A DNA stretch of 32,133 nucleotides from Chiloscyllium plagiosum (Eukaryota), in the NCBI RefSeq assembly GCF_004010195.1, contig NW_025213339.1, positions 1-32,133 on the forward strand, given 5' to 3'. The translations under genes were made by a program, and so were the position numbers. Shown here one piece after another: positions 721 through 29,367 of this stretch. The notes beneath the pieces were generated by a model, which was not told the origin of the DNA, did no database searches, and saw nothing but the letters and a program-made list of their open reading frames with translations. Within the stretch, counting starts at the first letter, position 1. Every line of letters begins with the position of its first letter.

Positions 721-744
721 TAAAGGTGAGGTTTCCCTGCGTTA

Positions 745-862
745 AAGGGAATCACTATAGACGAATCAGAGCTCCATGTTCTCACTCCACGTTTGCTCTC
801 TGACTCACTGTGATCTCCAGCATGTGTTGGTTTCAGTACTGATTCTGGAGTAATTTGCTCTG
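745..862 (+). mobile_element. Highly decayed Penelope-like element terminal fragment
   Basis: ctcactccac...tgatctccagcatgtgttggtttcagtactgattc...taatttgctc resembles the reverse complement of the gctggaaaagctcagcagg...tgtggagag termini at 7041-7310, 25030-25178 and 26740-26862. Confidence 0.45.
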
Positions 863-879
863 ACTAAAAGCAAAGACGT

Positions 880-1110
880 TCTGCACCAGTCACACAGAGT
901 TTTGGTGAGTCTGTATCTGGAGTATTGTGTACAGTTTTGATGTCCTGATCGAAGTAAAACATACTGAATGGACATTCGTCAGATTAATCCCTCAGATGAC
1001 AAGATTGTCTGCTGAGGAAACTCAGCCTGTGTTCTCTAAAGGTCCAGAGAGTAAAGGCGATCTCAGTGAAGCTTAAACATATTGAAACAGAGGGGATTGA
1101 AGAAAATAGG
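880..1110 (+). mobile_element. Decayed CR1 LINE ORF2 C-terminal fragment
   Basis: ttggtgagtctgtatctggagtattgtgtacagttttga translates LVSLYLEYCVQF*, a variant of the CR1 motif LVRPHLEYCVQFW. Confidence 0.7.
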
Positions 1111-1129
1111 GTCACTGTCAAGTGCGACC

Positions 1130-2830
1130 AAATTTAGCGAGAATTTCAAGATATTTCACAAGGACATCAAGCAGAACATAATAACAATAAGGATCCATTA
1201 GAAACCAGGGGGGCAATCTGTGTGTGAAGCTGGAGAACATTGATAAATTGTGATTTGAGAACTTCACATGTGTTTTACTTGGGAGAAGGAGGAGGCACAT
1301 ACAGAATATGAGAAAATGGACTGAGTAACTCTTGAGCAGATTGATATAAAATGTGAGCAGGAATTGATGGTTTTGGCTGGTATAAAATTAAACAAGTCCC
1401 CAGGTCTGGATGAGTTATATTACAGACTGCTGTTGGAGAGAAGAGAGGAATGGCCCTGACCCAAATGTTTCAGTAGATTCTGGTCAAAGGAGAGGTGCCA
1501 GAGGACTGGAGCGCACTCTTTACAGGAAGGCTGGTGGAGATAGACCAGGGAACTGTAGATCAGTGAGTATTAGATCAGTGTCAGGGAAACTATTGGAGAA
1601 AATAGGATAGGAGAAAACTGATCTTCATGTACAGCGGCAATATTTGACCAGGGATAGTCAGCATGAAGTCATCAGAGGCAAGCCATACCGAACGAATTTT
1701 ATTGACTTTTTCTCCAAAGAGGTTATTTATATGGTTTTTCAGCCAGGCCTTTAACAAAGCCCCATGGTCGAAACTGATAAAGAAAGTACAATCTCATGTT
1801 ATCAAGGGTAACTAGGTAACTGGCATTCAAATTGTCTTAGTGGCAGGAGACAGAGGGTGGTGGCAGAAAGGTATTTGTGTGACTGGAGACAAGTGTTCCC
1901 TGATGCACCACAAGAATCACTGCTGTGTCCCATATTATTTGTGGTATTTATATATGACGTAGATATAAATGGGGTGGGGTGAGTATGATAAGTAAGTTTG
2001 TGTTTGATTCAAAGATTGTCCGGGTTTTTGGCAATAAGGAGGAAGGCCTGATGTTTCAGGAAGATACGGATAAAATGGTCAGATGATCAGATCAATGGCA
2101 GATGAAATGCTACCCTGATAAATATGAGGTGATGCACTTTGGACGAAGGAACCAGACAGGGGAGTACTCAATGAATGGCAGCACACTAGGAAGCTCAGGA
2201 AGTGCTTCTCCACACATCCCTGAATGTCACGAGGCAGGGTAATAGGTCAGTTAAGAAGGCACTGGAGATAGTAAGCATAGTGTTTACTCGTCGAAATATA
2301 GATTATTAAAGTGAATACAAGACTTTGGTGAGGCCAAGATGGAATAATGCATGCAATTCTGGGAGCCACATTACAGGAAGGACGTGATAGTTCTGGAGGG
2401 AGTGCAAAGAGATTCACCGGGATGTTCCTTGGGATGGAGCATATCTGCAATGGAGAGAGGCTGTTTTATCTCGGGTTGTTTACTTTGGAGCAGAGAGGCT
2501 GAGTGGGATGTGATTTAGAAGGATAAGATTATGAGGAGCATGGACAGGGTGGATAGACAACAGCTTTTCCTTTAGTCAGAGGGCGAAGAACAAGGAAGCA
2601 CACCTTTAAAATGAAGGGTTTGAGGTTGATAGAGGAGTTGAGGATTGCTTTTCACCCAGATGGTGTTGGGGTTAGGAGTAAACATCCTGAGAGGGTAGTT
2701 GTGACGAGTAACGTCACAACCATTAAAAAGTAGTTAGGCCAGCACTTGAAGTATCATAGCATTTATGGCTTCGGAATTCATGTCAGAAAGTGTAACAAAT
2801 GTAAATCGTGCTGCTTTTATGATCGTATAG
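1130..2830 (+). mobile_element. Decayed CR1 LINE, RT domain through 3' end
   Basis: Motifs in order: NKSPGLDE (~1391), PGNCRSVSIRSVSGKLLEKI (ORF 1410..1610), ISKFVFDSKI (degenerate ISKFADDTK, ~1988) and WQMKCYPDKYEVMHFG (~2096), followed by CR1-like 3' sequence. Many disruptions. Confidence 0.85.
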
Positions 2831-2869
2831 AGTCGATGCTTCTGTGGTTGCGTGATTTTGGACGCTGAA

Positions 2870-3215
2870 TGCAGTTAGGAAGATAGATAGTGTGTTGACC
2901 TTCATTTCAAGGGGATTTGAGTCCACGAGTAAGGGTCACTTATTGCAGCTGTACAGGGCCTTAATGAGACCCCATCTCGAACATCGTGCAATATTGTGTG
3001 CAGTTTTGGTCTCCTTACCTCATAAAGGACAAACCTGACATTGAGAAAGTGCAGCGAAGGATGACCAGGCTGATCTCTGAGTTGACAGGCTTGTGTTGGA
3101 GCAGAGTTGTTTGACTGGGCCTGTACCCCACGGGGTTTAGGAAAATGGGTGGAGATCTCAGTGAAATATATAAAACTCTGAGAAAGTGAGACAGATTGGA
3201 AGCATGGATGATAAT
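2870..3215 (+). mobile_element. Decayed CR1 LINE ORF2 C-terminal fragment, cut by gap
   Basis: Translates LLQLYRALMRPHLE...YCVQFWSPYL...IEKVQRRMTRLI, the CR1 ORF2 C-terminal signature. Confidence 0.85.
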
Positions 3216-4519: not shown

Positions 4520-4830
4520 TGGAGCAGGTTGATACAATTGGGTGTCTTGCTTGGCCGATTCAGAGAGGATTGAAGAGTTTATCACATGTCTGCGCGTCTG
4601 AAGTCACTTTTAGGCCAGACCAGGAAAGCACAGGAGATTCACTTCCTGAAAATACATTGGGGAAGGCAATTGGTGTTTACAATCGACATTGGCTTCAGGG
4701 TCACTGTTACTGACACTAGATTTTAGACACCGATGTTTTATTAAGTGTTTTTAACTTCCACCAGCTGCCAGATCTTTAGCCTGGTCTGGATTAGTAATCC
4801 AATGACATTTCCACAGCAGCAGCATCTCCA
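4520..4830 (-). mobile_element. tRNA-derived SINE, same family as the split SINE at 24683-25295
   Basis: gtcacttttaggccagaccaggaaagc...acaatcgacattggcttcagggtc...ttccaccagctgcca is the diverged reverse complement of tggcagatggtggaa...accatgaaaccattgtcaattg at 24759-24810 and of the 25180-25260 tail. Confidence 0.6.
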
Positions 4831-6434
4831 CATGGGGACCTGTCTGAAACCACACTAAGCAATTTATTTCTGTGCTGCTTGATAGCTCTGTCAAAAAGAA
4901 CTCCCACCAATTTCACTATAGCGACGGGACTGAGCGCATGGTAAATGGTCAGATTGTAATTATTCCTCTCTTAGGGGATGGAACATTGCTGAGTAATTTT
5001 CCATATTACCAGGGAGATGTCAGAGTTGGAGCTGGAATGAAACAGCTTCCCCAGGGACACGGCTTGTTGTGCAACAAAAGTCTGCAGGAATGGTGTCAGG
5101 GCTCAATGCCTTGGCCATGTCTGTTGTGTTCAGCTGTTTCTTCATGTCACTTGCAATCAATCGAATTGGGTGAAGACGGGCATCTGTGATTCCGTGGGCA
5201 CCATAAAGAGGGTGAGGTGGATCATCGAATCAACATTTCTGGTTGAGGATGGTGCAGATACTACATCATTATCTTTTGCACTGGTGTACAGTGCTTTTCC
5301 ATTATTTAGGATTGGGATATTTGTGGAGTAATCTCCTCCAGTGAGTTGTTTAATAGTACATTGACCTTTATAATTGGATGTGGCAGGACGGCAGAACTTC
5401 TATCTCAATCTGTTGATCTTGGATAATTTCAACCTCTCTATCAGGTGTTAGTTCTGCTCTTTGGAATGCAAGCACTCCAGTGCGGTAGATTTAATGGGTT
5501 GTCATCAGGTTTAGGTACACATGGTTCTGACTCTGGCATGTTAACCCAGACTTGTCACTGATGGCTTCAGGGTCACTGTTACTGACACCAGATTTTAGAC
5601 ACCGATGTTTTATTAATTGTTTTTAACTTCCACCAGCTGCCAGATCTTTAGCCTGGTCAGGATTAGTAATCCAATGACATTTCCACAGCAGCACCATCTC
5701 CACATGGGGTCCTATCAGAAACAACACTAAGCAATTTATTTCTGTGCTGCTTGATAGCTCTGTCAAAAAGAACTCCCACCAATTTCACGATAGCGACCGG
5801 ACTGAGCGCATGGTAAATGGTCAGATTGTAATTATTCCTCTCTTAGGGGATGGAACATTGCTGAGTAATTTTCCATATTACCAGGGAGATGTCAGAGTTG
5901 GAGCTGGAATGAAACAGCTTCCCCAGGGACACGGCTTGTTGTGCAACAAAAGTCTACAGGAATGGTGTCAGGGCTCAATGCCTTGGCCATGTCTATTGTG
6001 TTCAGCTGTTTCTTCATGTCACTTGCAATCAATCGAATTGGGTGAAGACGGGCATCTGTGATTCCGTGGGCACCATAAAGAGGGTGAGGTGGATCATCGA
6101 ATCAACATTTCTGGTTGAGGATGGTGCAGATACTACATCATTATCTTTTGCACTGGTGTACAGTGCTTTTCCATTATTTAGGATTGGGATATTTGTGGAG
6201 TAATCTCCTCCAGTGAGTTGTTTAATAGTACATTGACCTTTATAATTGGATGTGGCAGGACGGCAGAACTTCTATCTCAATCTGTTGATCTTGGGATAAT
6301 TTCAACCTCTCTATCAGGTGTTAGTTCTGCTCTTTGGAATGCAAGCACTCCAATGCGGTAGCTTTAATGGGTTGTCATCAGGTTTAGGTACACATGGTTC
6401 TGACTCTGGCATGTTAACCCAGACTTGTCACTGA
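4690..6434. repeat. Direct tandem duplication of ~872 bp (copy 1 4690-5561, copy 2 5562-6434)
   Basis: tggcttcagggtcactgttactgacac starts at 4690 and at 5562. Twin ORFs lie at 4872 and 5744 (offset 872). I count about 15 differences by eye, including one 1-bp indel. Confidence 0.97.
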
Positions 6435-6742: not shown

Positions 6743-6814
6743 ATTACTCAAACTCTTTAACATATTCATCTGCATCTTATTACTCAAACTCTTTAACATA
6801 TTCATCTGCATCTT
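6743..6814. repeat. Perfect 36-bp tandem duplication (2 copies)
   Basis: attactcaaactctttaacatattcatctgcatctt at 6743-6778 and 6779-6814. Confidence 0.95.
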
Positions 6815-7469: not shown

Positions 7470-8121
7470 NNNNNNNNNNNNNNNNNNNNNNNNNNNNNNN
7501 NNNNNNNNNNNNNNNNNNNNNNNNNNNNNNNNNNNNNNNNNNNNNNNNNNNNNNNNNNNNNNNNNNNNNNNNNNNNNNNNNNNNNNNNNNNNNNNNNNNN
7601 NNNNNNNNNNNNNNNNNNNNNNNNNNNNNNNNNNNNNNNNNNNNNNNNNNNNNNNNNNNNNNNNNNNNNNNNNNNNNNNNNNNNNNNNNNNNNNNNNNNN
7701 NNNNNNNNNNNNNNNNNNNNNNNNNNNNNNNNNNNNNNNNNNNNNNNNNNNNNNNNNNNNNNNNNNNNNNNNNNNNNNNNNNNNNNNNNNNNNNNNNNNN
7801 NNNNNNNNNNNNNNNNNNNNNNNNNNNNNNNNNNNNNNNNNNNNNNNNNNNNNNNNNNNNNNNNNNNNNNNNNNNNNNNNNNNNNNNNNNNNNNNNNNNN
7901 NNNNNNNNNNNNNNNNNNNNNNNNNNNNNNNNNNNNNNNNNNNNNNNNNNNNNNNNNNNNNNNNNNNNNNNNNNNNNNNNNNNNNNNNNNNNNNNNNNNN
8001 NNNNNNNNNNNNNNNNNNNNNNNNNNNNNNNNNNNNNNNNNNNNNNNNNNNNNNNNNNNNNNNNNNNNNNNNNNNNNNNNNNNNNNNNNNNNNNNNNNNN
8101 NNNNNNNNNNNNNNNNNNNNN
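7470..8121. other. Assembly gap (N run)
   Basis: Run of n. Confidence 1.
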
Positions 8122-8939: not shown

Positions 8940-9320
8940 GAGTGTCGGAGTTTGAGGGGTGACATTATAGAAGCGTATTAAATCATGAGAGGAGTGGATA
9001 AGGGTAAATAACCACCGGATAGGAGAGTTAAAACATAGAGGACATCGCTTTAAGATGGAATGGAGGAAATTCAAAAGCGACGAAGGAGCAATGTTTTCAC
9101 ACAGAGGATGATGTACGTATGGAATGAGCTGCAGAGGAAGATTGACAGATGCAAGTGCAGCTACTACATTTCAAAGACATTAGGACAAACATATGAATGG
9201 CAAACCTTTATAGGCATATGGGGCAAATGCAAGCAGATGGGATTGGTTTCGTTTGTAAAACCTGACCAGTGTGGACAGGTTGGAGCAAAGGGTCTGTACA
9301 TACAGACTACATGATATAAC
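8940..9320 (+). mobile_element. CR1 LINE 3' end fragment
   Basis: ttgaggggtgacattatagaagcgtattaaatcatgagagga translates LRGDIIEAY*IMRG. ORF 9060..9314 contains SNVFTQRMMYVWNEL (CR1 consensus FFTQRVVxxWNxL). Confidence 0.85.
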
Positions 9321-12045: not shown

Positions 12046-12533
12046 CTGATCCTGTGTTCAGCCACATACGGAGGTTCCCCCTGAATGATTGAAAAGAGCC
12101 AAGCATTTCAATTGCAGATTTATGTCTTATATCTTGTCTGAAACGGAATGTGAAAATAGACCCAGGTGAAAGTCAGTAGATGTGTGGGGGAGACATTTAA
12201 GCAGATACTTCATAATGCTCAGCAATGATTGACTGTACTCAAAAAGAAGGTGAAATGAAGATGTGAAGATGAACCGCCCAGAAATGCACAAAGGCTGTGA
12301 AGGATGCTAATCTATCACAAACTAAAGAATTTAAACTGGTGAGTTGTAGTGTTGGTATTGGGACGCTTATTTTGGGAATCAGAAAAGATTGTATAAAGCA
12401 AAATACCAAGAAAAATATCCCAAAACTGACACGAAACATGAAAAAATAACCGCAAGAGTTTTCCCATATCGAATACAAAACGTTCATGATGTGTGTGTGA
12501 ACCTTGCAAGAAAGGCAGGAAAGAATATTTAGG

Positions 12534-15500
12534 TTCTATCTGGGTACCTCATAGGAGGCATTCTGTCTGTGTACATCATAGGAGGCATTCTATCTGGGTA
12601 CACCATAGAAGGCATTCTATCTGGGTACCTCATAGGAGGCATTCTGTCTGTGTACATCATAGGAGGCATTCTATCTGGGTACACCATAGAAGGCATTCTA
12701 TCTGGGTACCTCATAGGAGGCATTCTGTCTGTGTACATCATAGGAGGCATTCTATCTGGGTACACCATAGAAGGCATTCTATCTGGGTACCTCATAGGAG
12801 GCATTCTGTCTGTGTACATCATAGGAGGCATTCTATCTGGGTACACCATAGAAGGCATTCTATCTGGGTACCTCATAGGAGGCATTCTGTCTGTGTACAT
12901 CATAGGAGGCATTCTATCTGGGTACACCATAGAAGGCATTCTATCTGGGTACCTCATAGGAGGCATTCTGTCTGTGTACATCATAGGAGGCATTCTATCT
13001 GGGTACACCATAGAAGGCATTCTATCTGGGTACCTCATAGGAGGCATTCTGTCTGTGTACATCATAGGAGGCATTCTATCTGGGTACACCATAGAAGGCA
13101 TTCTATCTGGGTACCTCATAGGAGGCATTCTGTCTGTGTACATCATAGGAGGCATTCTATCTGGGTACACCATAGAAGGCATTCTATCTGGGTACCTCAT
13201 AGGAGGCATTCTGTCTGTGTACATCATAGGAGGCATTCTATCTGGGTACACCATAGAAGGCATTCTATCTGGGTACCTCATAGGAGGCATTCTGTCTGTG
13301 TACATCATAGGAGGCATTCTATCTGGGTACACCATAGAAGGCATTCTATCTGGGTACCTCATAGGAGGCATTCTGTCTGTGTACATCATAGGAGGCATTC
13401 TATCTGGGTACACCATAGAAGGCATTCTATCTGGGTACCTCATAGGAGGCATTCTGTCTGTGTACATCATAGGAGGCATTCTATCTGGGTACACCATAGA
13501 AGGCATTCTATCTGGGTACCTCATAGGAGGCATTCTGTCTGTGTACATCATAGGAGGCATTCTATCTGGGTACACCATAGAAGGCATTCTATCTGGGTAC
13601 CTCATAGGAGGCATTCTGTCTGTGTACATCATAGGAGGCATTCTATCTGGGTACACCATAGAAGGCATTCTATCTGGGTACCTCATAGGAGGCATTCTGT
13701 CTGTGTACATCATAGGAGGCATTCTATCTGGGTACACCATAGAAGGCATTCTATCTGGGTACCTCATAGGAGGCATTCTGTCTGTGTACATCATAGGAGG
13801 CATTCTATCTGGGTACACCATAGAAGGCATTCTATCTGGGTACCTCATAGGAGGCATTCTGTCTGTGTACATCATAGGAGGCATTCTATCTGGGTACACC
13901 ATAGAAGGCATTCTATCTGGGTACCTCATAGGAGGCATTCTGTCTGTGTACATCATAGGAGGCATTCTATCTGGGTACACCATAGAAGGCATTCTATCTG
14001 GGTACCTCATAGGAGGCATTCTGTCTGTGTACATCATAGGAGGCATTCTATCTGGGTACACCATAGAAGGCATTCTATCTGGGTACCTCATAGGAGGCAT
14101 TCTGTCTGTGTACATCATAGGAGGCATTCTATCTGGGTACACCATAGAAGGCATTCTATCTGGGTACCTCATAGGAGGCATTCTGTCTGTGTACATCATA
14201 GGAGGCATTCTATCTGGGTACACCATAGAAGGCATTCTATCTGGGTACCTCATAGGAGGCATTCTGTCTGTGTACATCATAGGAGGCATTCTATCTGGGT
14301 ACACCATAGAAGGCATTCTATCTGGGTACCTCATAGGAGGCATTCTGTCTGTGTACATCATAGGAGGCATTCTATCTGGGTACACCATAGAAGGCATTCT
14401 ATCTGGGTACCTCATAGGAGGCATTCTGTCTGTGTACATCATAGGAGGCATTCTATCTGGGTACACCATAGAAGGCATTCTATCTGGGTACCTCATAGGA
14501 GGCATTCTGTCTGTGTACATCATAGGAGGCATTCTATCTGGGTACACCATAGAAGGCATTCTATCTGGGTACCTCATAGGAGGCATTCTGTCTGTGTACA
14601 TCATAGGAGGCATTCTATCTGGGTACACCATAGAAGGCATTCTATCTGGGTACCTCATAGGAGGCATTCTGTCTGTGTACATCATAGGAGGCATTCTATC
14701 TGGGTACACCATAGAAGGCATTCTATCTGGGTACCTCATAGGAGGCATTCTGTCTGTGTACATCATAGGAGGCATTCTATCTGGGTACACCATAGAAGGC
14801 ATTCTATCTGGGTACCTCATAGGAGGCATTCTGTCTGTGTACATCATAGGAGGCATTCTATCTGGGTACACCATAGAAGGCATTCTATCTGGGTACCTCA
14901 TAGGAGGCATTCTGTCTGTGTACATCATAGGAGGCATTCTATCTGGGTACACCATAGAAGGCATTCTATCTGGGTACCTCATAGGAGGCATTCTGTCTGT
15001 GTACATCATAGGAGGCATTCTATCTGGGTACACCATAGAAGGCATTCTATCTGGGTACCTCATAGGAGGCATTCTGTCTGTGTACATCATAGGAGGCATT
15101 CTATCTGGGTACACCATAGAAGGCATTCTATCTGGGTACCTCATAGGAGGCATTCTGTCTGTGTACATCATAGGAGGCATTCTATCTGGGTACACCATAG
15201 AAGGCATTCTATCTGGGTACCTCATAGGAGGCATTCTGTCTGTGTACATCATAGGAGGCATTCTATCTGGGTACACCATAGAAGGCATTCTATCTGGGTA
15301 CCTCATAGGAGGCATTCTGTCTGTGTACATCATAGGAGGCATTCTATCTGGGTACACCATAGAAGGCATTCTATCTGGGTACCTCATAGGAGGCATTCTG
15401 TCTGTGTACATCATAGGAGGCATTCTATCTGGGTACACCATAGAAGGCATTCTATCTGGGTACCTCATAGGAGGCATTCTGTCTGTGTACATCATAGGAG

Positions 15501-18500
15501 GCATTCTATCTGGGTACACCATAGAAGGCATTCTATCTGGGTACCTCATAGGAGGCATTCTGTCTGTGTACATCATAGGAGGCATTCTATCTGGGTACAC
15601 CATAGAAGGCATTCTATCTGGGTACCTCATAGGAGGCATTCTGTCTGTGTACATCATAGGAGGCATTCTATCTGGGTACACCATAGAAGGCATTCTATCT
15701 GGGTACCTCATAGGAGGCATTCTGTCTGTGTACATCATAGGAGGCATTCTATCTGGGTACACCATAGAAGGCATTCTATCTGGGTACCTCATAGGAGGCA
15801 TTCTGTCTGTGTACATCATAGGAGGCATTCTATCTGGGTACACCATAGAAGGCATTCTATCTGGGTACCTCATAGGAGGCATTCTGTCTGTGTACATCAT
15901 AGGAGGCATTCTATCTGGGTACACCATAGAAGGCATTCTATCTGGGTACCTCATAGGAGGCATTCTGTCTGTGTACATCATAGGAGGCATTCTATCTGGG
16001 TACACCATAGAAGGCATTCTATCTGGGTACCTCATAGGAGGCATTCTGTCTGTGTACATCATAGGAGGCATTCTATCTGGGTACACCATAGAAGGCATTC
16101 TATCTGGGTACCTCATAGGAGGCATTCTGTCTGTGTACATCATAGGAGGCATTCTATCTGGGTACACCATAGAAGGCATTCTATCTGGGTACCTCATAGG
16201 AGGCATTCTGTCTGTGTACATCATAGGAGGCATTCTATCTGGGTACACCATAGAAGGCATTCTATCTGGGTACCTCATAGGAGGCATTCTGTCTGTGTAC
16301 ATCATAGGAGGCATTCTATCTGGGTACACCATAGAAGGCATTCTATCTGGGTACCTCATAGGAGGCATTCTGTCTGTGTACATCATAGGAGGCATTCTAT
16401 CTGGGTACACCATAGAAGGCATTCTATCTGGGTACCTCATAGGAGGCATTCTGTCTGTGTACATCATAGGAGGCATTCTATCTGGGTACACCATAGAAGG
16501 CATTCTATCTGGGTACCTCATAGGAGGCATTCTGTCTGTGTACATCATAGGAGGCATTCTATCTGGGTACACCATAGAAGGCATTCTATCTGGGTACCTC
16601 ATAGGAGGCATTCTGTCTGTGTACATCATAGGAGGCATTCTATCTGGGTACACCATAGAAGGCATTCTATCTGGGTACCTCATAGGAGGCATTCTGTCTG
16701 TGTACATCATAGGAGGCATTCTATCTGGGTACACCATAGAAGGCATTCTATCTGGGTACCTCATAGGAGGCATTCTGTCTGTGTACATCATAGGAGGCAT
16801 TCTATCTGGGTACACCATAGAAGGCATTCTATCTGGGTACCTCATAGGAGGCATTCTGTCTGTGTACATCATAGGAGGCATTCTATCTGGGTACACCATA
16901 GAAGGCATTCTATCTGGGTACCTCATAGGAGGCATTCTGTCTGTGTACATCATAGGAGGCATTCTATCTGGGTACACCATAGAAGGCATTCTATCTGGGT
17001 ACCTCATAGGAGGCATTCTGTCTGTGTACATCATAGGAGGCATTCTATCTGGGTACACCATAGAAGGCATTCTATCTGGGTACCTCATAGGAGGCATTCT
17101 GTCTGTGTACATCATAGGAGGCATTCTATCTGGGTACACCATAGAAGGCATTCTATCTGGGTACCTCATAGGAGGCATTCTGTCTGTGTACATCATAGGA
17201 GGCATTCTATCTGGGTACACCATAGAAGGCATTCTATCTGGGTACCTCATAGGAGGCATTCTGTCTGTGTACATCATAGGAGGCATTCTATCTGGGTACA
17301 CCATAGAAGGCATTCTATCTGGGTACCTCATAGGAGGCATTCTGTCTGTGTACATCATAGGAGGCATTCTATCTGGGTACACCATAGAAGGCATTCTATC
17401 TGGGTACCTCATAGGAGGCATTCTGTCTGTGTACATCATAGGAGGCATTCTATCTGGGTACACCATAGAAGGCATTCTATCTGGGTACCTCATAGGAGGC
17501 ATTCTGTCTGTGTACATCATAGGAGGCATTCTATCTGGGTACACCATAGAAGGCATTCTATCTGGGTACCTCATAGGAGGCATTCTGTCTGTGTACATCA
17601 TAGGAGGCATTCTATCTGGGTACACCATAGAAGGCATTCTATCTGGGTACCTCATAGGAGGCATTCTGTCTGTGTACATCATAGGAGGCATTCTATCTGG
17701 GTACACCATAGAAGGCATTCTATCTGGGTACCTCATAGGAGGCATTCTGTCTGTGTACATCATAGGAGGCATTCTATCTGGGTACACCATAGAAGGCATT
17801 CTATCTGGGTACCTCATAGGAGGCATTCTGTCTGTGTACATCATAGGAGGCATTCTATCTGGGTACACCATAGAAGGCATTCTATCTGGGTACCTCATAG
17901 GAGGCATTCTGTCTGTGTACATCATAGGAGGCATTCTATCTGGGTACACCATAGAAGGCATTCTATCTGGGTACCTCATAGGAGGCATTCTGTCTGTGTA
18001 CATCATAGGAGGCATTCTATCTGGGTACACCATAGAAGGCATTCTATCTGGGTACCTCATAGGAGGCATTCTGTCTGTGTACATCATAGGAGGCATTCTA
18101 TCTGGGTACACCATAGAAGGCATTCTATCTGGGTACCTCATAGGAGGCATTCTGTCTGTGTACATCATAGGAGGCATTCTATCTGGGTACACCATAGAAG
18201 GCATTCTATCTGGGTACCTCATAGGAGGCATTCTGTCTGTGTACATCATAGGAGGCATTCTATCTGGGTACACCATAGAAGGCATTCTATCTGGGTACCT
18301 CATAGGAGGCATTCTGTCTGTGTACATCATAGGAGGCATTCTATCTGGGTACACCATAGAAGGCATTCTATCTGGGTACCTCATAGGAGGCATTCTGTCT
18401 GTGTACATCATAGGAGGCATTCTATCTGGGTACACCATAGAAGGCATTCTATCTGGGTACCTCATAGGAGGCATTCTGTCTGTGTACATCATAGGAGGCA

Positions 18501-21500
18501 TTCTATCTGGGTACACCATAGAAGGCATTCTATCTGGGTACCTCATAGGAGGCATTCTGTCTGTGTACATCATAGGAGGCATTCTATCTGGGTACACCAT
18601 AGAAGGCATTCTATCTGGGTACCTCATAGGAGGCATTCTGTCTGTGTACATCATAGGAGGCATTCTATCTGGGTACACCATAGAAGGCATTCTATCTGGG
18701 TACCTCATAGGAGGCATTCTGTCTGTGTACATCATAGGAGGCATTCTATCTGGGTACACCATAGAAGGCATTCTATCTGGGTACCTCATAGGAGGCATTC
18801 TGTCTGTGTACATCATAGGAGGCATTCTATCTGGGTACACCATAGAAGGCATTCTATCTGGGTACCTCATAGGAGGCATTCTGTCTGTGTACATCATAGG
18901 AGGCATTCTATCTGGGTACACCATAGAAGGCATTCTATCTGGGTACCTCATAGGAGGCATTCTGTCTGTGTACATCATAGGAGGCATTCTATCTGGGTAC
19001 ACCATAGAAGGCATTCTATCTGGGTACCTCATAGGAGGCATTCTGTCTGTGTACATCATAGGAGGCATTCTATCTGGGTACACCATAGAAGGCATTCTAT
19101 CTGGGTACCTCATAGGAGGCATTCTGTCTGTGTACATCATAGGAGGCATTCTATCTGGGTACACCATAGAAGGCATTCTATCTGGGTACCTCATAGGAGG
19201 CATTCTGTCTGTGTACATCATAGGAGGCATTCTATCTGGGTACACCATAGAAGGCATTCTATCTGGGTACCTCATAGGAGGCATTCTGTCTGTGTACATC
19301 ATAGGAGGCATTCTATCTGGGTACACCATAGAAGGCATTCTATCTGGGTACCTCATAGGAGGCATTCTGTCTGTGTACATCATAGGAGGCATTCTATCTG
19401 GGTACACCATAGAAGGCATTCTATCTGGGTACCTCATAGGAGGCATTCTGTCTGTGTACATCATAGGAGGCATTCTATCTGGGTACACCATAGAAGGCAT
19501 TCTATCTGGGTACCTCATAGGAGGCATTCTGTCTGTGTACATCATAGGAGGCATTCTATCTGGGTACACCATAGAAGGCATTCTATCTGGGTACCTCATA
19601 GGAGGCATTCTGTCTGTGTACATCATAGGAGGCATTCTATCTGGGTACACCATAGAAGGCATTCTATCTGGGTACCTCATAGGAGGCATTCTGTCTGTGT
19701 ACATCATAGGAGGCATTCTATCTGGGTACACCATAGAAGGCATTCTATCTGGGTACCTCATAGGAGGCATTCTGTCTGTGTACATCATAGGAGGCATTCT
19801 ATCTGGGTACACCATAGAAGGCATTCTATCTGGGTACCTCATAGGAGGCATTCTGTCTGTGTACATCATAGGAGGCATTCTATCTGGGTACACCATAGAA
19901 GGCATTCTATCTGGGTACCTCATAGGAGGCATTCTGTCTGTGTACATCATAGGAGGCATTCTATCTGGGTACACCATAGAAGGCATTCTATCTGGGTACC
20001 TCATAGGAGGCATTCTGTCTGTGTACATCATAGGAGGCATTCTATCTGGGTACACCATAGAAGGCATTCTATCTGGGTACCTCATAGGAGGCATTCTGTC
20101 TGTGTACATCATAGGAGGCATTCTATCTGGGTACACCATAGAAGGCATTCTATCTGGGTACCTCATAGGAGGCATTCTGTCTGTGTACATCATAGGAGGC
20201 ATTCTATCTGGGTACACCATAGAAGGCATTCTATCTGGGTACCTCATAGGAGGCATTCTGTCTGTGTACATCATAGGAGGCATTCTATCTGGGTACACCA
20301 TAGAAGGCATTCTATCTGGGTACCTCATAGGAGGCATTCTGTCTGTGTACATCATAGGAGGCATTCTATCTGGGTACACCATAGAAGGCATTCTATCTGG
20401 GTACCTCATAGGAGGCATTCTGTCTGTGTACATCATAGGAGGCATTCTATCTGGGTACACCATAGAAGGCATTCTATCTGGGTACCTCATAGGAGGCATT
20501 CTGTCTGTGTACATCATAGGAGGCATTCTATCTGGGTACACCATAGAAGGCATTCTATCTGGGTACCTCATAGGAGGCATTCTGTCTGTGTACATCATAG
20601 GAGGCATTCTATCTGGGTACACCATAGAAGGCATTCTATCTGGGTACCTCATAGGAGGCATTCTGTCTGTGTACATCATAGGAGGCATTCTATCTGGGTA
20701 CACCATAGAAGGCATTCTATCTGGGTACCTCATAGGAGGCATTCTGTCTGTGTACATCATAGGAGGCATTCTATCTGGGTACACCATAGAAGGCATTCTA
20801 TCTGGGTACCTCATAGGAGGCATTCTGTCTGTGTACATCATAGGAGGCATTCTATCTGGGTACACCATAGAAGGCATTCTATCTGGGTACCTCATAGGAG
20901 GCATTCTGTCTGTGTACATCATAGGAGGCATTCTATCTGGGTACACCATAGAAGGCATTCTATCTGGGTACCTCATAGGAGGCATTCTGTCTGTGTACAT
21001 CATAGGAGGCATTCTATCTGGGTACACCATAGAAGGCATTCTATCTGGGTACCTCATAGGAGGCATTCTGTCTGTGTACATCATAGGAGGCATTCTATCT
21101 GGGTACACCATAGAAGGCATTCTATCTGGGTACCTCATAGGAGGCATTCTGTCTGTGTACATCATAGGAGGCATTCTATCTGGGTACACCATAGAAGGCA
21201 TTCTATCTGGGTACCTCATAGGAGGCATTCTGTCTGTGTACATCATAGGAGGCATTCTATCTGGGTACACCATAGAAGGCATTCTATCTGGGTACCTCAT
21301 AGGAGGCATTCTGTCTGTGTACATCATAGGAGGCATTCTATCTGGGTACACCATAGAAGGCATTCTATCTGGGTACCTCATAGGAGGCATTCTGTCTGTG
21401 TACATCATAGGAGGCATTCTATCTGGGTACACCATAGAAGGCATTCTATCTGGGTACCTCATAGGAGGCATTCTGTCTGTGTACATCATAGGAGGCATTC

Positions 21501-23430
21501 TATCTGGGTACACCATAGAAGGCATTCTATCTGGGTACCTCATAGGAGGCATTCTGTCTGTGTACATCATAGGAGGCATTCTATCTGGGTACACCATAGA
21601 AGGCATTCTATCTGGGTACCTCATAGGAGGCATTCTGTCTGTGTACATCATAGGAGGCATTCTATCTGGGTACACCATAGAAGGCATTCTATCTGGGTAC
21701 CTCATAGGAGGCATTCTGTCTGTGTACATCATAGGAGGCATTCTATCTGGGTACACCATAGAAGGCATTCTATCTGGGTACCTCATAGGAGGCATTCTGT
21801 CTGTGTACATCATAGGAGGCATTCTATCTGGGTACACCATAGAAGGCATTCTATCTGGGTACCTCATAGGAGGCATTCTGTCTGTGTACATCATAGGAGG
21901 CATTCTATCTGGGTACACCATAGAAGGCATTCTATCTGGGTACCTCATAGGAGGCATTCTGTCTGTGTACATCATAGGAGGCATTCTATCTGGGTACACC
22001 ATAGAAGGCATTCTATCTGGGTACCTCATAGGAGGCATTCTGTCTGTGTACATCATAGGAGGCATTCTATCTGGGTACACCATAGAAGGCATTCTATCTG
22101 GGTACCTCATAGGAGGCATTCTGTCTGTGTACATCATAGGAGGCATTCTATCTGGGTACACCATAGAAGGCATTCTATCTGGGTACCTCATAGGAGGCAT
22201 TCTGTCTGTGTACATCATAGGAGGCATTCTATCTGGGTACACCATAGAAGGCATTCTATCTGGGTACCTCATAGGAGGCATTCTGTCTGTGTACATCATA
22301 GGAGGCATTCTATCTGGGTACACCATAGAAGGCATTCTATCTGGGTACCTCATAGGAGGCATTCTGTCTGTGTACATCATAGGAGGCATTCTATCTGGGT
22401 ACACCATAGAAGGCATTCTATCTGGGTACCTCATAGGAGGCATTCTGTCTGTGTACATCATAGGAGGCATTCTATCTGGGTACACCATAGAAGGCATTCT
22501 ATCTGGGTACCTCATAGGAGGCATTCTGTCTGTGTACATCATAGGAGGCATTCTATCTGGGTACACCATAGAAGGCATTCTATCTGGGTACCTCATAGGA
22601 GGCATTCTGTCTGTGTACATCATAGGAGGCATTCTATCTGGGTACACCATAGAAGGCATTCTATCTGGGTACATCATAGAAGGCATTCTATTTGTGTTCA
22701 CCATAGAAGGCATTCTATCTGGGTACATCATAGAAGGCATTCTATTTGTGTTCACCATAGAAGGCATTCTATCTGGGTACATCATAGAAGGCATTCTATT
22801 TGTGTACATCATAGAAGGCATTCTATCTGGGTACATCATAGAAGGCATTCTATCTGGGTACCTCATAGGAGGCATTCTGTCTGTGTACATCATAGGAGGC
22901 ATTCTATCTGGGTACACCATAGAAGGCATTCTATCTGGGTACATCATAGAAGGCATTCTATTTGTGTTCACCATAGAAGGCATTCTATCTGGGTACATCA
23001 TAGGAGGAATTCTATCTGGGTACCCCATAGGAGACATTCTATCTGAGTACATCATAGAAGGCATTTTATCTGGGTGCATCAAAGGAGACATTCTATCTGG
23101 GTACATCAAAGGAGTTCCTCTATCTGGGTACATCATAGTAGGCATTCTATCTCGGTACCTCATAGAAGGCATTCTAATTGTTATATCCTGGAATGCATTC
23201 TATCTGGGTACATCATAGTAGGAATTCTATCTCAGTACCTCATAGAAGGCATTCTAATTGTTACATCCTAGAAGGCATTCTATTTGGGTACATCATAGGA
23301 GACATTCTCTCTGGGTACATCATAAAAGGCATTCTATCTGGGTAGATCGCAGAAGGCATTCTTTCTGAGTACATCATCGGAGGTATTCTACCTGGGTACA
23401 TCATAGACGGCATTCTATCAGGGTAGATCA
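12534..23430. repeat. Tandem satellite: 27-bp monomer, ~400 monomers, 81-bp higher-order repeat, derived from Rex1/Babar LINE ORF2
   Basis: A=ttctatctgggtacctcataggaggca, B=ttctgtctgtgtacatcataggaggca, C=ttctatctgggtacaccatagaaggca. (ABC)n spans 12534-22658 = 10125 bp = 125 x 81, and the 60-nt lines recur every 1620 bp. Diverged monomers continue to ~23430. Confidence 0.99.
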
Positions 23431-24036
23431 TAGCTTTGTAGAGCAACTGCTCTGCCCAGGACAGTAAAAACCTACAGAAAGATATGTGCACAGCCCAGTC
23501 CATCATGCAAGCCAATCTTCCAACTATTGACTCCATCTACACTTCTCATTGCCACAGAAAGGCAACCAATATCATCAAAGACTCCTTCTACCCTATTTAT
23601 AATCTCTTCTAATATCTTCCATCAGGCAGAAGATACAGAGGCTTAAACACAAGTATCAACAGGTTCAAGAACAGCTTCTTCCCCACTGTTAGTAGACTGC
23701 TGAACGGACCTCCCCAACTTCAAATCTCACATTGATCTTGCTTTTGTACACCTTCTGAGCTGCCTCACAGTGAGGCAGAAAAAAATTGGCCATACGGTCA
23801 TGAGTCATGAATCAGAGCACATGACTTTGGAGAGACCAAGTTTTAAACTATAGAAATGTTGCAGCAAAAACAGAGTTTGAAATCTTCAGTCTGAATCTTT
23901 TTTCTGCCTCACTGTTCAAGGACCCTATGATCTGTATGTCCTTGTATGTTATGATCTGCCTGTACTGCTTGCAATTCAAACTTTCCACTGTACTTAGATA
24001 CATGTGACAACGATAAATCAAATCAGATCAAATAAA
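23400..24036 (+). mobile_element. Rex1/Babar-type LINE 3' portion (ORF2 C-terminus, 3' UTR, (AAATC)n-like tail), contiguous with the satellite
   Basis: Translates IIDGILSG*IIAL*SNCSAQDSKNLQKDMCTAQSIMQANLPTIDSIYTSHCHRKATNIIKDS...LPSGRRYRGLNTSINRFKNSFFPTVSRLLN, the Rex1/Babar C-terminus (DUF1891-region motif IESILxxCITxWYG). Tail taaatcaaatcagatcaaataaa. Confidence 0.92.
23767..23915. repeat. Insertion with 18-bp perfect terminal inverted repeats, containing an inverted copy of 26406-26517
   Basis: acagtgaggcagaaaaaa (23767-23784) pairs with ttttttctgcctcactgt (23898-23915). The interior 23783-23894 is the reverse complement of 26406-26517 with few mismatches. Confidence 0.9.
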
Positions 24037-24858
24037 GTAAATGGCCTTGCCATTACCTGTACATGGGACCTCACTGAATACAATATGGCTGGAATATTTC
24101 CTAAACTACAACATGTATCTATTTAGTGAGAGCGAATCTCTTTACTGCAATCTAAATGACAATTTTGGACTTGGAGATTCAATCTATTTAAAAATTTGAA
24201 CATTTTAGAAAGACCTCTGGGTATGATAAATCATCAGATGAGTGTGAGTTCTTCCTTTAAGGTCATCAACCCAATAATGGACTTAATTAAAAAATCATAT
24301 GAATTCAATGTAAAAATTAACTGCACACACATAATGGATTTTTAGAACTAGTTCCATGTGTTTTAAAATTAATCACCTAATTAAATAAAATGGCAGTGGA
24401 ATCTAGCTGTGTGCTACAGAAATCTACAATTCCAGAGGTGCACTACACTTTGATATTTAAATGCAGCAACGTGTTAATATTCTTTCTCCAACAGTGACAA
24501 GAAAAGCTCAATGGGTCCCATTGAGTCATGTGCTCTGTTTATTTAGCAAACTCAGATACAAAGTATCTTACATAAACAATAGCGTTGGGATCCTTCATTG
24601 AAATAGGAGAGTTGTCTCAGCAGTGCTCCTTTTCATGGACAATATGATCATAGGGAAGTCCAAAACAAAGCAAGTCGATGGAGATGATTGCCTAGTGGTA
24701 TTATTGTTCAACTATTAACCTAGGTAATGTTCTGAGGATCAGAGTTCAAATCCTGCAATGGCAGATGGTGGAACTTGAATTCAAGGAAACCATGAAACCA
24801 TTGTCAATTGCTGGAAATACCAATCTAGTTCACAAAGGCACTTAAATGAAGGAAACTA

Positions 24859-25020
24859 ATGTCCAACAATCTCTCCATCAATGTCAGCAAAGCGAAGGAG
24901 CTGGTTATTGACTTCAGGAAGCAGAGTGGAGGGCATGCCCTGTTCTACATCAATGGTGTTGAGGTGGAGATGGTCAAGCGCATCAACAACAATGTGTCCT
25001 GGTCTACCCATGTCGAACAC
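24859..25020 (+). mobile_element. Rex1/Babar LINE internal fragment
   Basis: NNLSINVSKAKELVIDFRKQSGGHALFYINGVEVEMV...NNVSWSTH is the post-FADD motif NLxLNVxKTKELIxDFR. Homologous to 26636-26735. Confidence 0.85.
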
Positions 25021-25029
25021 AATACCTCT

Positions 25030-25178
25030 ACTGCAAAAAAAACTGCAAGAAATGCAGGTGCTATGAATCAGAATCAGAAACAGAAACAGAAATTGCTGGA
25101 AAAGCTCAGCAGATCTGACAGCATTTGTGAGGAGAAATCAGAGTTAACGTTTTGGATCTAGTGACTCTTCCTCTGAAC
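25030..25178 (-). mobile_element. Penelope-like terminal fragment with degenerate hammerhead motif
   Basis: aattgctggaaaagctcagcagatctgacagcatttgtgaggagaaatcagagttaacgttt. The minus strand reads GGUU-CAGAGGA-A-GAGUC-ACUA-GAUCC-AAAA-CGUU-AACU. Confidence 0.7.
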
Positions 25179-26494
25179 CTAGATGCAATTTCCGATCCGC
25201 AGCAATGTGGTTGACTTTTAACTGTGGTCTGGACAATTAGGATGGACAATAAGTGCTGGTCTAGTCAATGACAGCCACATACTGAATAAATAAAAGCAAA
25301 AGAACAATAGTTTGATCTGTGCTCCCTATTGAGTGTATAGGTTACACTTCTCATCAGGGTGACAATAAATTAATTTTTCATAAATTATACCAGCTCATCC
25401 AGAAAGTGATAGGACAGAGTGTTGCATTGAATCCTGGTTGATGAAACCTGAATATAAAAACTAATACCTTGCTGATTCTATTTCTTCTTTAGTTGTGTTG
25501 GCATCACAATCTGAGATTGATATTCTGTCAACATTTATATAAGGTAATGCTAAATAAAACACACATGACCCGCTGAGATAGTCGTCCAGAGAATGAAATT
25601 TATATGGAAATAGTCTGGAGATGAGTCTTGATGATTTCAAATGATGGGACTGTCACTATTTCCTTTTGCAACTTGTTGGATTGTGGGATTGCCCTTGGGA
25701 AGAAAGATTGTTAACAATTGGTTTCTGTCACTTGTGTGGATGGCTTGGTGACATTGTGTTATAACCAGATGGTATCGTGTACTTGTTTTTGTCAATTATC
25801 TGCAATCCATTCTATATTTTATCAAATAGGCTCACTTAAGTTGTTTCTTCCTTTGCTGTAGTGATTTTAATTCTAAATCTTTGATTAAGTATTTAACATT
25901 ATTATATTTCCCATTGTGTTTCATACCGTCTATCTGTGGACTGCTTCATATCAGTCAAACTATGAGGATCCTATTCACAACTAGCAATGCCAAAGAGTAC
26001 TGTGCAGAACTCTGTTTGCTGAAGGTATTATTTGTTGAATGTGAAATCATTATTGAAAATTAATTTATTCACAGAATGCAAAATTACAATTGCCTTCTAT
26101 GAAACGTTCCAGTAACTAGCAGTTTCTCCTTATAAGTACTCTCAGTACTTAATTGAACAAGGCACTTTACCTTAATGATGCAATTAACATATCATAAATA
26201 GAAGGACATCATTTAGTTCCATTGTCTACAGGAGCTATCCATTTTAATCCCAGAATGTTGCTCTTTACCAAATCCTGCAAATTATTTCCTCTTGAATCTG
26301 TTTCCTCAACAACTTCAGGTGATGTGTCCTAGATCACAACAAATTGCTGTCAAAAGAAATTCTCCTCCCCTCTTCTCTAATTTGCTGCTGACATTGGATT
26401 GTTTATGAGACTCAAGATTTCAAGTTCTGTTTTTGCTGCAACATTTCTAAAGTTTAAAACTTGATCTCTCCAATGTCATGTGCTCTGATTCATG

Positions 26495-27509
26495 ACTCAT
26501 GACTGTCTGGCCAATTTCCACCCTAACTCCATTTATAAGTTTGCTGATGACACCATCATTGATGGGCGAATCTCAATCAACGATGAGACAAAGTAAAGCA
26601 AAGAGATCGAGTCCTCAGCGGCACAGCATAAAGACAACAATCTCTCCATCAACATCAGCAAAATGAAGGAGCTAATCATTGACTTCAGGAAGTGGAGTGG
26701 GTGGAGCACTCAGTCTGCATCAATGGTGCTGAGATGGATAAGAACCAAAAGAACTGTGACTGCTAGAAATCAGAAACAAAAACAGAAGACGCTGGAAAAG
26801 CTCAGCAGGTCTGGCAGTATCTGTGGAGAGAAATCAGAGTTAATGTTTCGATTCCAGTGATACCCATTGGTGCTGAGGTGAAGTTCCTGGGAGTGACTAT
26901 CGCCAACAATCTGCCATGACTCAAGTTGACACGGCAATCAAGAAAGTACAATGCATCTACTTCCTCAGGACGCTAAGGAAGTTGGGCATGTCCACAAGGA
27001 CTCTTACCAATTTTACAGATGCACTGTAGGAAGCATCCAATCTGGATGGTACGGTAACTGCTCTTCCCTGGACTGCGTGAAACTACAGCGAGTTGTGAAC
27101 ACACCCCAGTCCATCACGTAAACCAGCCTTCCATCCATTGACTCCATCTACACTTTCCATTGCCTCTGGACAGCAAGCAACATCATCAAAGACCCCTCCC
27201 ATCCCGATTATACTTTCTTCTACCTTCTTCTGTCAGGCACCAGATATAAAAAGTTTGAATACATATAAGAACAGATTCAAGAGCAGCTTCTTCCCCACTG
27301 TTATCAGACTTTTGAATGGACCTCTCAAATGTTAATTCTGCTCTCGCGCTCTCTATCTCTCTCTGACGCTTTTTTACGGCTGTAACACTGCATTCTGCAC
27401 TCTGTTCTGCTCCGTTGGCGCACTTTGTATGGTACGATCTGCCTGTGTCGCACACAAAACAGCACTTTTCACTGTATCTTGGTACATGCAACAACAATAA
27501 ATCAGTCAG
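26495..27509 (+). mobile_element. 5'-truncated Rex1/Babar LINE with candidate 8-bp target-site duplication
   Basis: THDCLANFHPNSIYKFADDT (RT catalytic FADD), NNLSINISKMKELIIDFRK, KFLGVTI, YFLRTLRKLGMS and NRFKSSFFPTVIRLLNGP, then a 3' UTR like 23920-24030. TCATGACT occurs at 26490-26497 and 27510-27517. Confidence 0.92.
26740..26862 (-). mobile_element. Penelope-like terminal fragment nested in the Rex copy
   Basis: gctggaaaagctcagcaggtctggcagtatctgtggagagaaatcagagttaatgtttcg is closely similar to 25095-25153. It is flanked by the imperfect direct repeats caatggtgctgagatgga (26721) and cattggtgctgaggtgaa (26865). Confidence 0.75.
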
Positions 27510-27785: not shown

Positions 27786-29367
27786 TAGACAATAGACAAT
27801 AGACAATAGACAATAGGTGCAGGAGTAGGCCATTCAGCCCTTTGAGCCTGCACCGCCATTCAATATGATCATGGCTGATCATTCCTAATCAGTATCCTGT
27901 TCCTGCCTTATCTCCATAACCCTTGATTCCACTATCTTTGAGAGCTCTATCCAACTCCTTCTTAAATGAATCCAGAGACTGGGCCTCCACTGCCCTCTGG
28001 GACAGAGCATTCCACACAGCCACCACTCTTTGGGTGAAGAAGTTTCTCCTGAGCTCTGTCCTAAAAGAGGCTACCCCGTATTTTTAAGCTGTGTCCTCTA
28101 GTTCGGCACTCACCCATCAGTGGAAACATGTTTCCTGCTGCCAGAGTGGCCAATTCTTTCATAATCTTATACATTGCAATCAGATCCCCTCTCAGTCTTC
28201 TAAACTCAAGGGTATACAAGCCCAGTCGCTCCAATCTTTCAACATAAGATANNNNNNNNNNNNNNNNNNNNNNNNNNNNNNNNNNNNNNNNNNNNNNNNN
28301 NNNNNNNNNNNNNNNNNNNNNNNNNNNNNNNNNNNNNNNATGTTATTGCTGTTACCATCTTCTATATCATTAACATATATTGTAAAAAGCTGTGGTCCCA
28401 GCACGGATCCCTGCGGTACCCCACTGGTCACTGCATGCCTTTCCGAAATGGAGCCGTTTATCACTACCTTTTGTTTCCTATTAGCCAACCAATTTTCAGT
28501 CCAATCTAGTACTTTGCCCCCAATACCATGCACCCTAATTTTACTCACTAACCTCCTGTGTGGGACTTTATCAAAAGTTTTCTGAAAGTCCAGGTACACT
28601 ACATCTACTGTATTTCCCTCGTCCAACTTCATAGTTACATCCTCAAAAGGTTCAAGAAGATTAGTCAAGCATGATTTCCCCTTCATAAATCCATGCTGAC
28701 TCTGTCCTATCCTGTTACTACTATCCAGATGTGCCGTAATTTTATCCTTTATAATAGATTCCAGCATTTTTCCCACCATTGAGGTCAGACTAACTGGTCT
28801 ATAATTTCCTGCTTTCTCTCGCCTACCTTTCTTAAAAAGTGGTATAACATTAGCCACCCTCCCATCCTCAGGAACCGACCCCGAATCTATTGAACTCTGG
28901 AAAATAATCACCAACGCATCCACGATTTCCCGAGCTACCTCCTTCAGTACCCTGGGATGCAGGCCATCAGGCCCCGGAGACTTATCAACCTTCAGACCTA
29001 ACAGTCTCTCCAACACCAAATCCTGGCAAATATAAATTCCTTTAAGTTCAGATCCTTCAGCCACTGTTACCTCAGGGAGATTGCTTGTGTCTTCCCAAGT
29101 GAACACAGATCTGAAGTACCCATTTAACTCCTCTGCCATTTCTTTGTTCCTAGTAATATATTCCCCTGTTTCTGTCTTCAAGGGCCCAATTTTTGTCCTA
29201 ACCATTTTTTTGCTTTGTACATACCTAAAAAAGCTTTTACTATCCTCCTTAATATTCTTGGCCAGTTTACCTTCGTACCTCATTTTTCCTCTGCGTATTT
29301 CCTTCTTAGTAATCCTCTGTTGCTCTTTAAAAGCTTCCCAGTCCTCAGTTTTCCCACTTATCTTAGC
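27786..29367 (-). mobile_element. Young 5'-truncated CR1 LINE with stop-free ORF2/RT segment and (TTGTCTA)n 3' tail
   Basis: ORF 28192..29283 contains DKSPGPDGLHPRVLKE, NYRPVSLTS, SQHGFMKGKSCLTNL, VDVVYLDFQKTFDKVPH and SGVPQGSVLGPQLFTIYVND. The tail is (TAGACAA)x4 at 27786-27813 on the plus strand. Confidence 0.97.
28252..28339. other. Assembly gap (88 N) inside the CR1
   Basis: Run of n. Confidence 1.

What the first reader, a model, noticed from the sequence alone, without database searches (positions are those of the whole stretch)
12534..24036. A ~10.9-kb satellite born from nine codons of a Rex1/Babar retrotransposon, still attached to its parent element
Seen: the last monomer (atcatagacggcattctatcagggtagatcatagct, ~23400) runs without a break, in the same reading frame, into Rex1/Babar ORF2 (..SNCSAQDSKNLQK..LPSGRRY..RFKNSFFP). 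The array frame reads YTIEGILSG. Seen: the independent Rex copy in this window has the unamplified unit at the collinear position (27018-27044, gatgcactgtaggaagcatccaatctg). It matches rotated monomer C at 19/27 ungapped positions, and GATG recurs exactly 27 bp apart there. Established: this stretch corresponds to the Rex1/Babar motif FYRCTIESILSGCITxWYG, and satellites arising from TE fragments are a known phenomenon. Inference: slippage or unequal exchange seeded at that 27-bp-spaced microhomology amplified an internal piece of LINE coding sequence into a locus-specific satellite. I do not recognise this satellite family.
Basis: partly seen in the sequence, partly recalled or inferred. Interest (0 to 1): 0.8.

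Follow-up and report, generated by a model that had tools for sequence, protein, structure and literature searches.

The report
LINE-born minisatellite, likely assembly-inflated
A 27-base repeat copied from nine codons of an old jumping gene is real and still joined to that gene's remains, but the 10-kb run of 125 identical turns that made it look like a large satellite is likely an assembly error over a shorter, variable repeat of a well-known kind.

Summary
The origin holds; the size probably does not. The 27-bp monomer matches the unamplified LINE unit seen in a related species at 24 of 27 bases. The last six monomers lie in the frame of a decayed RT + PF09004 LINE C-terminus, with stops at the joint. 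Contigs of two animals carry these monomers, and one bridges into the LINE tail.

Of the 10.9 kb, 10,125 bp are 125 letter-identical 81-mers. None of five sequenced animals supports that block. Three raw-read runs give about 0.5-3 reads where 19-52 are expected. The best-matching run lacks the trimer's diagnostic bases, though it holds more monomer signal than the others. The left junction is untested and no LINE 5' part lies there.

Best reading: a length-variable minisatellite, likely seeded by slippage at a 27-bp-spaced microhomology, whose interior an assembler likely filled with a loop. TE-derived minisatellites are well known (PMC3389668, PMC6947457). Unchecked notes of this scan judged two other letter-perfect arrays in this genome to be assembly loops.

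The parts
12534..22669 (+). Partial monomer plus 125 letter-identical 81-bp trimers (monomers A, B, C); likely an assembly loop in place of the true array interior
   Evidence: first departure from 81-bp periodicity at 22592, so perfect to 22672; read depth and diagnostic bases
22670..23433 (+). Variant zone: 28 full monomers and a final partial one, more diverged towards the 3' end, with two 1-nt deletions (monomers at 23156 and 23236)
   Evidence: X1 contigs match 23156-23272, 23243-23329 and 23308-23444 with 0, 0 and 1 differences at depth 21-32
23424..23720 (+). Decayed C-terminal coding end of a non-LTR retrotransposon ORF (RT + PF09004 type, Rex1/Babar-like), three in-frame stops
   Evidence: E 3e-26 to P0001, 61% identity; tblastn of RT protein P0043 residues 866-966 to 23403-23705, E 1e-24
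23721..24037 (+). 3' UTR ending in short AAATC-like repeats, interrupted by an insert at about 23767-23915
   Evidence: blastn to the second copy's 3' end
26489..27504 (+). Independent decayed copy of the same LINE family with the single, unamplified unit at 27020-27046; 75% identical to the array's tail
   Evidence: weak PF09004 match at 26922-27014 (E 0.014, below Pfam's cut-off)
12491..12545 (.). Left junction: flank meets a perfect unit abruptly, mid-monomer; no LINE 5' part and no target-site duplication
   Evidence: no bridging record among the rows shown

Best explanation
This is a 27-bp minisatellite derived from nine codons of a decayed Rex1/Babar-like LINE and joined to its 3' end; it was likely seeded by a slip between two short near-repeats 27 bp apart, likely varies in length between animals, and its 10.1-kb block of 125 identical trimers is likely an assembly loop rather than true sequence. 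Steps: (1) shown: the monomer is homologous to the LINE unit and collinear with the tail; (2) shown: the parent has near-repeats TGCACCA and TGCATCA 27 bp apart; (3) inferred: slippage or unequal exchange between them made the first duplication, giving the hybrid start (downstream ATC joined to upstream ATA GAA) seen in 20 of 28 variant monomers; (4) inferred: later in-register exchanges or conversions grew the array from one side, leaving the oldest monomers next to the LINE tail; (5) inferred: short reads could not resolve the interior, and a gap-filling step walked one 81-bp graph cycle 125 times. No function is proposed; it is likely neutral repeat DNA.
For: Origin: loose ends of paralogous contigs before 23427 give the single parent unit, 24 of 27 identical to monomer C in organism B (11 contigs; compared by eye), followed directly by TGC and the tail. 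104 of 120 long relatives of the tail (nearly all RT proteins) carry the motif and 0 of 120 carry it duplicated. Attachment: X3 record 17 spans 23196-23557, about eight monomers plus 134 bp of tail, at 89% identity; X1 contigs tile the variant zone and run 21 bases past the last full monomer. Inflation: no difference in 10,125 bp beside a variant zone of 21-27 of 27 identity to monomer B. Four N gaps of 88-652 bases, an exact 36-bp doublet and a 98% 872-bp tandem pair suggest a short-read, gap-filled assembly (inference). Raw runs X19-X21 give 773-1004 bases in the bin holding one trimer: at most 9-12 reads each, and about 0.5-3.3 once a dispersed repeat at about 12500 is subtracted, against 19-52 expected for a homozygous block in a 7 to 2.5 Gb genome. 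For X1, a 125-copy model predicts 4394 and 7779-8061 where 1628 and 2168-2401 are seen, and the trimer's best placements in all three registers need changes (23302, plus 23320, 23292 or 23326) that are absent at 10% or more. GapCloser turned a 2.9-copy repeat into 7.9 copies in PMC10265787 (passages).
Against: None of the five runs is known to be the assembled animal: X1 differs from the window at 7 listed places in 9025-9046, shared with X21 reads, so a private long allele is not excluded. X1 carries 4 times the monomer signal of X3 and 13-33 times that of organisms C and B (6.59, 1.69, 0.50, 0.20 after scaling to the LINE tail), so multi-kb arrays probably exist. Only 84% of X1's contigs were read, and the tool warns that summed contig depth is no copy number. 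A heterozygous block in a 7-Gb genome (9 reads expected) is not excluded by the unsubtracted raw-read bound. The assembly method is unknown, and the published overestimate (2.9 to 7.9 copies) is far smaller than 125. The ATC start could also be one C-to-T change in a founder monomer.
Confidence: 0.65

Rival explanations
1. The perfect 10.1-kb block is true: the assembled animal carries a very recent expansion allele of a hypermutable minisatellite, grown by in-register duplication of one trimer.
For: X1 has several times more monomer signal than X3, X19, X20 or X21, so large allele differences exist. The variant zone shows higher-order units (DE pairs, one A-B-C at 22859), so trimer expansion is natural here. 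Zero differences in 10 kb is expected if divergence is near 1e-4 per base (P 0.36).
Against: 0 of 5 runs laid show the trimer at such depth; X1's abundant monomers are of other types; short N gaps 4.4 kb and 4.8 kb from the array remain open, which long spanning reads would tend to close (inference); the block meets the left flank with no variant unit.
Confidence: 0.22
2. The first repeats were made during retrotransposition: the reverse transcriptase slipped at the microhomology, copied the unit several times and stopped, so the array marks the 5' truncation point. Later DNA-level expansion did the rest.
For: No LINE sequence lies 5' of the array and it starts mid-monomer; Rex1 copies are often left incomplete by reverse transcription (PMC6274825, passages).
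Against: No target-site duplication was found. The left junction is unverified and may be a misjoin. X1 holds monomer variants that the window lacks, at depth 25 and 50, which may be the missing left end.
Confidence: 0.1
3. The array is unrelated DNA that happens to abut a LINE fragment, or the join is an assembly artefact.
For: The 19 of 27 match to the second copy is within the chance range for this window; X1's contig passes the joint by only 21 bases, under the tool's 31-base rule.
Against: 24 of 27 identity to the parent unit at exactly the collinear place; tblastn alignments of RT proteins begin inside the last monomer; X3 record 17 bridges the joint.
Confidence: 0.03

Closest known systems
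TE-derived minisatellites seeded by short flanking repeats (Haber and Louis model; Alu-, B1- and MaLR-derived minisatellites), PMC3389668 (passages and section 3.4 read) and PMC6947457 (passages read)
   Same: Unit of 10-100 bp copied from inside a retroposon, near-repeats one unit apart, incomplete terminal unit, variation concentrated at one end, array still embedded in the parent.
   Different: The unit comes from protein-coding sequence of a fish-type LINE in a cartilaginous fish and is a whole number of codons; no such case turned up (listings only).
LINE-derived satellite DNAs (CR1-derived chicken HinfI and centromeric satellites, LINE-1-derived PROsat), as tabulated in PMC6947457 (passage)
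   Same: A tandem array built from part of a non-LTR retrotransposon.
   Different: Those are described as satellite DNAs; here the unit is 27 bp, the real array may be 1 to a few kb, and nothing shows it at many loci or in heterochromatin.
Tandem-repeat copy-number errors of gap-closing and graph loops (PMC10265787 passages; 'loop tangle' in 10.1101/2022.06.24.497523 passage)
   Same: Near-identical tandem repeats form graph cycles; de Bruijn gap closers get copy number wrong, including overestimates.
   Different: The published overestimate was 2.9 to 7.9 copies, far below 125; the method used for this assembly is not known.

Membership tests
TE-derived minisatellite | Head-to-tail unit of 10-100 bp | tested here: met
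   27-bp monomer, 81-bp trimer
TE-derived minisatellite | Unit homologous to, and overlapping, a transposable element | tested here: met
   24 of 27 to the parent unit, collinear with the tail
TE-derived minisatellite | Short (5-10 bp) near-repeats one unit apart in the parent, and an incomplete terminal unit | tested here: met
   TGCACCA / TGCATCA (6 of 7) from loose ends; GATG pair in the second copy; final partial unit 23424-23433
VNTR | Length or unit order differs between individuals | tested here: inconclusive
   X1 has 4 times X3's scaled monomer signal, and X3's bridging contig differs in monomer order; summed contig depth is no copy number and other loci may contribute
Satellite DNA (long array) | Verified long array, unit over 100 bp in the PMC3389668 definition | tested here: not met
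   Unit 27 bp; 10.1 of 10.9 kb unsupported in 5 of 5 runs laid
Rex1/Babar LINE | Non-LTR element whose ORF has RT and, upstream, an AP endonuclease | tested here: met
   Through relatives only: of the 120 long relatives listed for P0001 135-340 nearly all carry PF00078 and PF09004, some also PF03372 or PF14529; the window copy itself has lost these domains
Rex1/Babar LINE | 3' UTR followed by an oligonucleotide tail | tested here: met
   3' UTR shared with the second copy and AAATC-like repeats at about 24015-24035; feature from PMC6274825
Rex1/Babar LINE | RT groups with named Rex1/Babar sequences rather than CR1 or L2 | not testable with these tools
   No Dfam or Repbase consensus on hand; none of the relatives' names says Rex1 or Babar. 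The family label is recalled.

The most novel reading that the evidence does not exclude
A hypervariable minisatellite born from LINE coding sequence that keeps its whole history in view: parent unit, microhomology, hybrid first junction, one-sided ageing gradient and alleles from under 1 kb to many kb. Contigs with at least 2.4 tandem monomers in organisms B and C (records 25 and 9) suggest that it predates the species split or that this LINE motif seeds arrays repeatedly, which would make it a natural series for testing minisatellite birth in slow-mutating shark genomes.
Probability: 0.3. Interest if true: 0.45.

Novelty: new member of a known kind. Interest (0 to 1): 0.25.

Why it matters
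As biology it is a tidy example of a known process: in the human genome at least 23% of minisatellites and satellites were traced to transposable elements (PMC3389668). Its value lies in the unusually clear parent unit and as a possible polymorphic marker. As a warning it matters more: letter-perfect multi-kb arrays in this assembly should not be read as newborn satellites without read support.

Tried and rejected
No whole genome is held, so other loci with this monomer could not be counted. A protein product was rejected: the block is open in three of six frames, but 12534-23215 holds a single ATG on the + strand. Searching with the array translation gave 0 hits among 4287 candidates, and 34 phmmer hits of which 0 carry the motif or LINE tail motifs; the nine read are unrelated repetitive proteins. 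A two-monomer pattern found 0 matches in metagenome contigs. Pfam gave no match above cut-off for any of the six window translations scanned. No target-site duplication of 7 exact bases, or 10 with one mismatch. The left junction was not resolved: one search's tables were filled by a high-copy repeat and no bridging record is among the rows shown, which proves nothing either way. X1's summed contig depth first looked like a copy number, but its ratio to raw-read depth varies from about 110 to 3000 between bins (worked out by hand), so it was used only as an upper bound. Whether X10 record 10 (94% to 23433-23553) is the orthologous tail could not be shown. Paper searches for DUF1891 with retrotransposon and shark + minisatellite + retrotransposon + VNTR found 0 papers; two searches listed nothing useful. 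Look-ups for similar stretches in this scan found none.

Full report
Anatomy. Tandem Repeats Finder reports one array at 12534-23433, period 81, 134.6 copies. Cut into 27-bp monomers, it is a partial unit, then 125 consecutive A-B-C trimers at 12545-22669 with no difference at all, then 764 bp of variant monomers. The variant zone has 28 full monomers and a final partial one. Identity to monomer B falls from 24-27 of 27 near the block to 21-25 of 27 near the 3' end, and two monomers (23156, 23236) are one base short. The window has four N gaps of 88 to 652 bases.

Origin of the monomer. From 23397 the frame reads YIIDGILSG, stop, IIAL, stop, SNCSAQDSK and on to RFKNSFFP. This matches shark and ray predicted proteins that have picked up the same element (3 hits among 13 candidates, best E 3e-26); P0001 reads FSRC-TIESILSG-CITAWYGNCS there. 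Residues 135-340 of P0001 found 198 long relatives, and nearly all of the 120 listed carry reverse transcriptase (PF00078) and PF09004, some also an endonuclease family. In 104 of the 120 the nine-residue motif is present and in 0 of 120 is it duplicated. RT protein P0043 aligns to 23403-23705, starting inside the last monomer (E 1e-24). The best nucleotide evidence comes: contigs of other LINE copies that fit from 23427 onward have loose 5' ends whose consensus is one copy of the unit, 24 of 27 identical to monomer C in organism B (11 contigs, agreement 0.77; compared by eye), with a similar end in organism C (9 contigs). The name Rex1/Babar is recalled. The architecture fits the features listed in PMC6274825 (passages), but no named consensus could be aligned.

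Frame claim. Only the last six monomers (23262-23423) are in the tail's frame, with stops at 23343, 23424 and 23439; the bulk is two frameshifts away. The open frames of the block follow from the unit being nine codons, and there is one ATG on the + strand in 10.7 kb. Protein searches with the array found nothing related.

Attachment. In run X1, contigs at depth 21-32 match 23156-23272, 23243-23329, 23308-23444 and 23446-23521 with 0, 0, 1 and 0 differences. The third passes the last full monomer by 21 bases, short of the tool's 31-base rule. In X3, another animal, one 378-bp contig spans 23196-23557 at 89% identity (39 differences, 1 gap, depth 4.2). Where it is almost the only cover (23366-23421) it shows two listed differences and keeps the window's private variants, while ten differences and an insertion cluster at 23233-23263. 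That suggests an allele of the same locus with another monomer order, though a close duplicate is possible and low-depth differences may be errors. So the variant zone and its join to the LINE are real DNA.

The perfect block. Raw reads of three further animals with the same species label (1934 Mb each) were laid on the left flank plus one trimer. The last bin holds 1004, 785 and 773 bases. If all lay on the unit, that is at most 12, 9 and 9 reads; a dispersed repeat at about 12500 (14-25 reads deep) accounts for most, leaving about 2.7, 0.5 and 3.3. A homozygous block predicts 19-52 reads per run for genomes of 7 to 2.5 Gb, a heterozygous one 9-26; genome size is assumed, not measured. For X1, an error-free graph model at 30-fold depth with 125 trimers predicts 4394 in that bin (seen 1628) and 7779-8061 at 23268-23295 (seen 2168-2401); about 40 trimers would fit the first figure as an upper bound. 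The trimer's best placements on the variant zone, in all three registers, need a change at 23302 plus one at 23320, 23292 or 23326, and none is among X1's 19 differences at 10% or more; trimer segments that fit the observed differences reach only 25 bases. X1's abundant monomers are instead of types that occur 5 times and once in the window, and it holds variants that the window lacks (joints at depth 25 and 50).

Results against this reading. X1's total monomer signal, scaled to the LINE tail, is 6.59 against 1.69 (X3), 0.20 (organism B) and 0.50 (organism C); on that total the model would allow about 90 trimers' worth, so an array of one to several kb, or several arrays, is probable in that animal. 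X1 may not be the assembled animal, since it differs from the window at 7 listed places in 9025-9046. Only 84% of its contigs were read, so trimer contigs could have been missed, and the tool warns that summed depth is no copy number. A very young true expansion could also be perfect. I therefore put the artefact reading at about two in three.

Context for an artefact. The gaps, an exact 36-bp doublet (6743-6814) and a 98% 872-bp tandem pair (4690-6434) suggest a short-read, gap-filled assembly (inference). PMC10265787 (passages) reports that tandem repeats make up 75-100% of wrongly closed gaps and that GapCloser wrote 7.9 copies for 2.9. The Verkko preprint (passage) describes loop tangles from near-identical tandem repeats. 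Two unchecked notes of this scan reach the same view for other perfect arrays in this genome; my reading was recorded before I saw them, and they are not independent support.

Mechanism. The parent has TGCACCA and TGCATCA 27 bp apart. A slip or unequal exchange between them would give a unit that starts with the downstream ATC and continues with the upstream ATA GAA; 20 of the 28 full variant monomers start that way, 4 with ACC, 3 with CTC and 1 with CCC (after removing the final partial unit from 21 of 29). This is the Haber and Louis model as summarised in PMC6947457 (passages) and PMC3389668 (section 3.4), which also notes one-sided growth (passage). The step is inferred; one C-to-T change in a founder would look the same. 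No LINE sequence lies left of the array and no target-site duplication was found, so either the element was 5'-truncated here or the true left end is missing; the left junction is untested. Contigs with 64 bp of tandem monomer in organisms B and C (records 25 and 9) hint that the array is older than these species or that the motif amplifies more than once.

Verdict. A real LINE-derived minisatellite, a new member of a well-known kind; listings showed no report of this one, but most subscription papers are not searched. The striking 10.9-kb size is likely not real as written. Interest 0.25.

Noticed in passing
window 23767-23915 and 26408-26517: The 3' UTR of the array's LINE holds a 110-bp inverted copy (93%) of the 5' edge of the second LINE copy and its flank, 2.6 kb away, between 18-bp inverted arms. 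It may be an old templated insertion or a small MITE-like element.
   Followed up: partly
window 4690-6434: Two head-to-tail copies of 872 bp at 98.3% identity; could be two haplotypes placed in tandem or a true duplication.
   Followed up: no
window 6743-6814: Exact 36-bp doublet, possibly a gap-closing overlap.
   Followed up: no
window 24864-25164 and 26635-26860: Two fragments of the same LINE RT region, each followed by a similar short repeat-like segment (80% and 84% identical): an old duplication or a composite element.
   Followed up: no
window 9025-9046: Seven listed differences from both X1 contigs and X21 reads within 22 bases: a distinct haplotype or a local assembly error.
   Followed up: no
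window 28342-29352, minus strand: A more distant RT-coding fragment (24-27% to the Rex-like RT proteins), probably a CR1-type LINE (recalled label).
   Followed up: no
P0001, P0003: Database proteins of a catshark (an Ig V-set protein and a serine carboxypeptidase isoform) end in this LINE's C-terminus: gene-model read-through or exonised LINE sequence.
   Followed up: no
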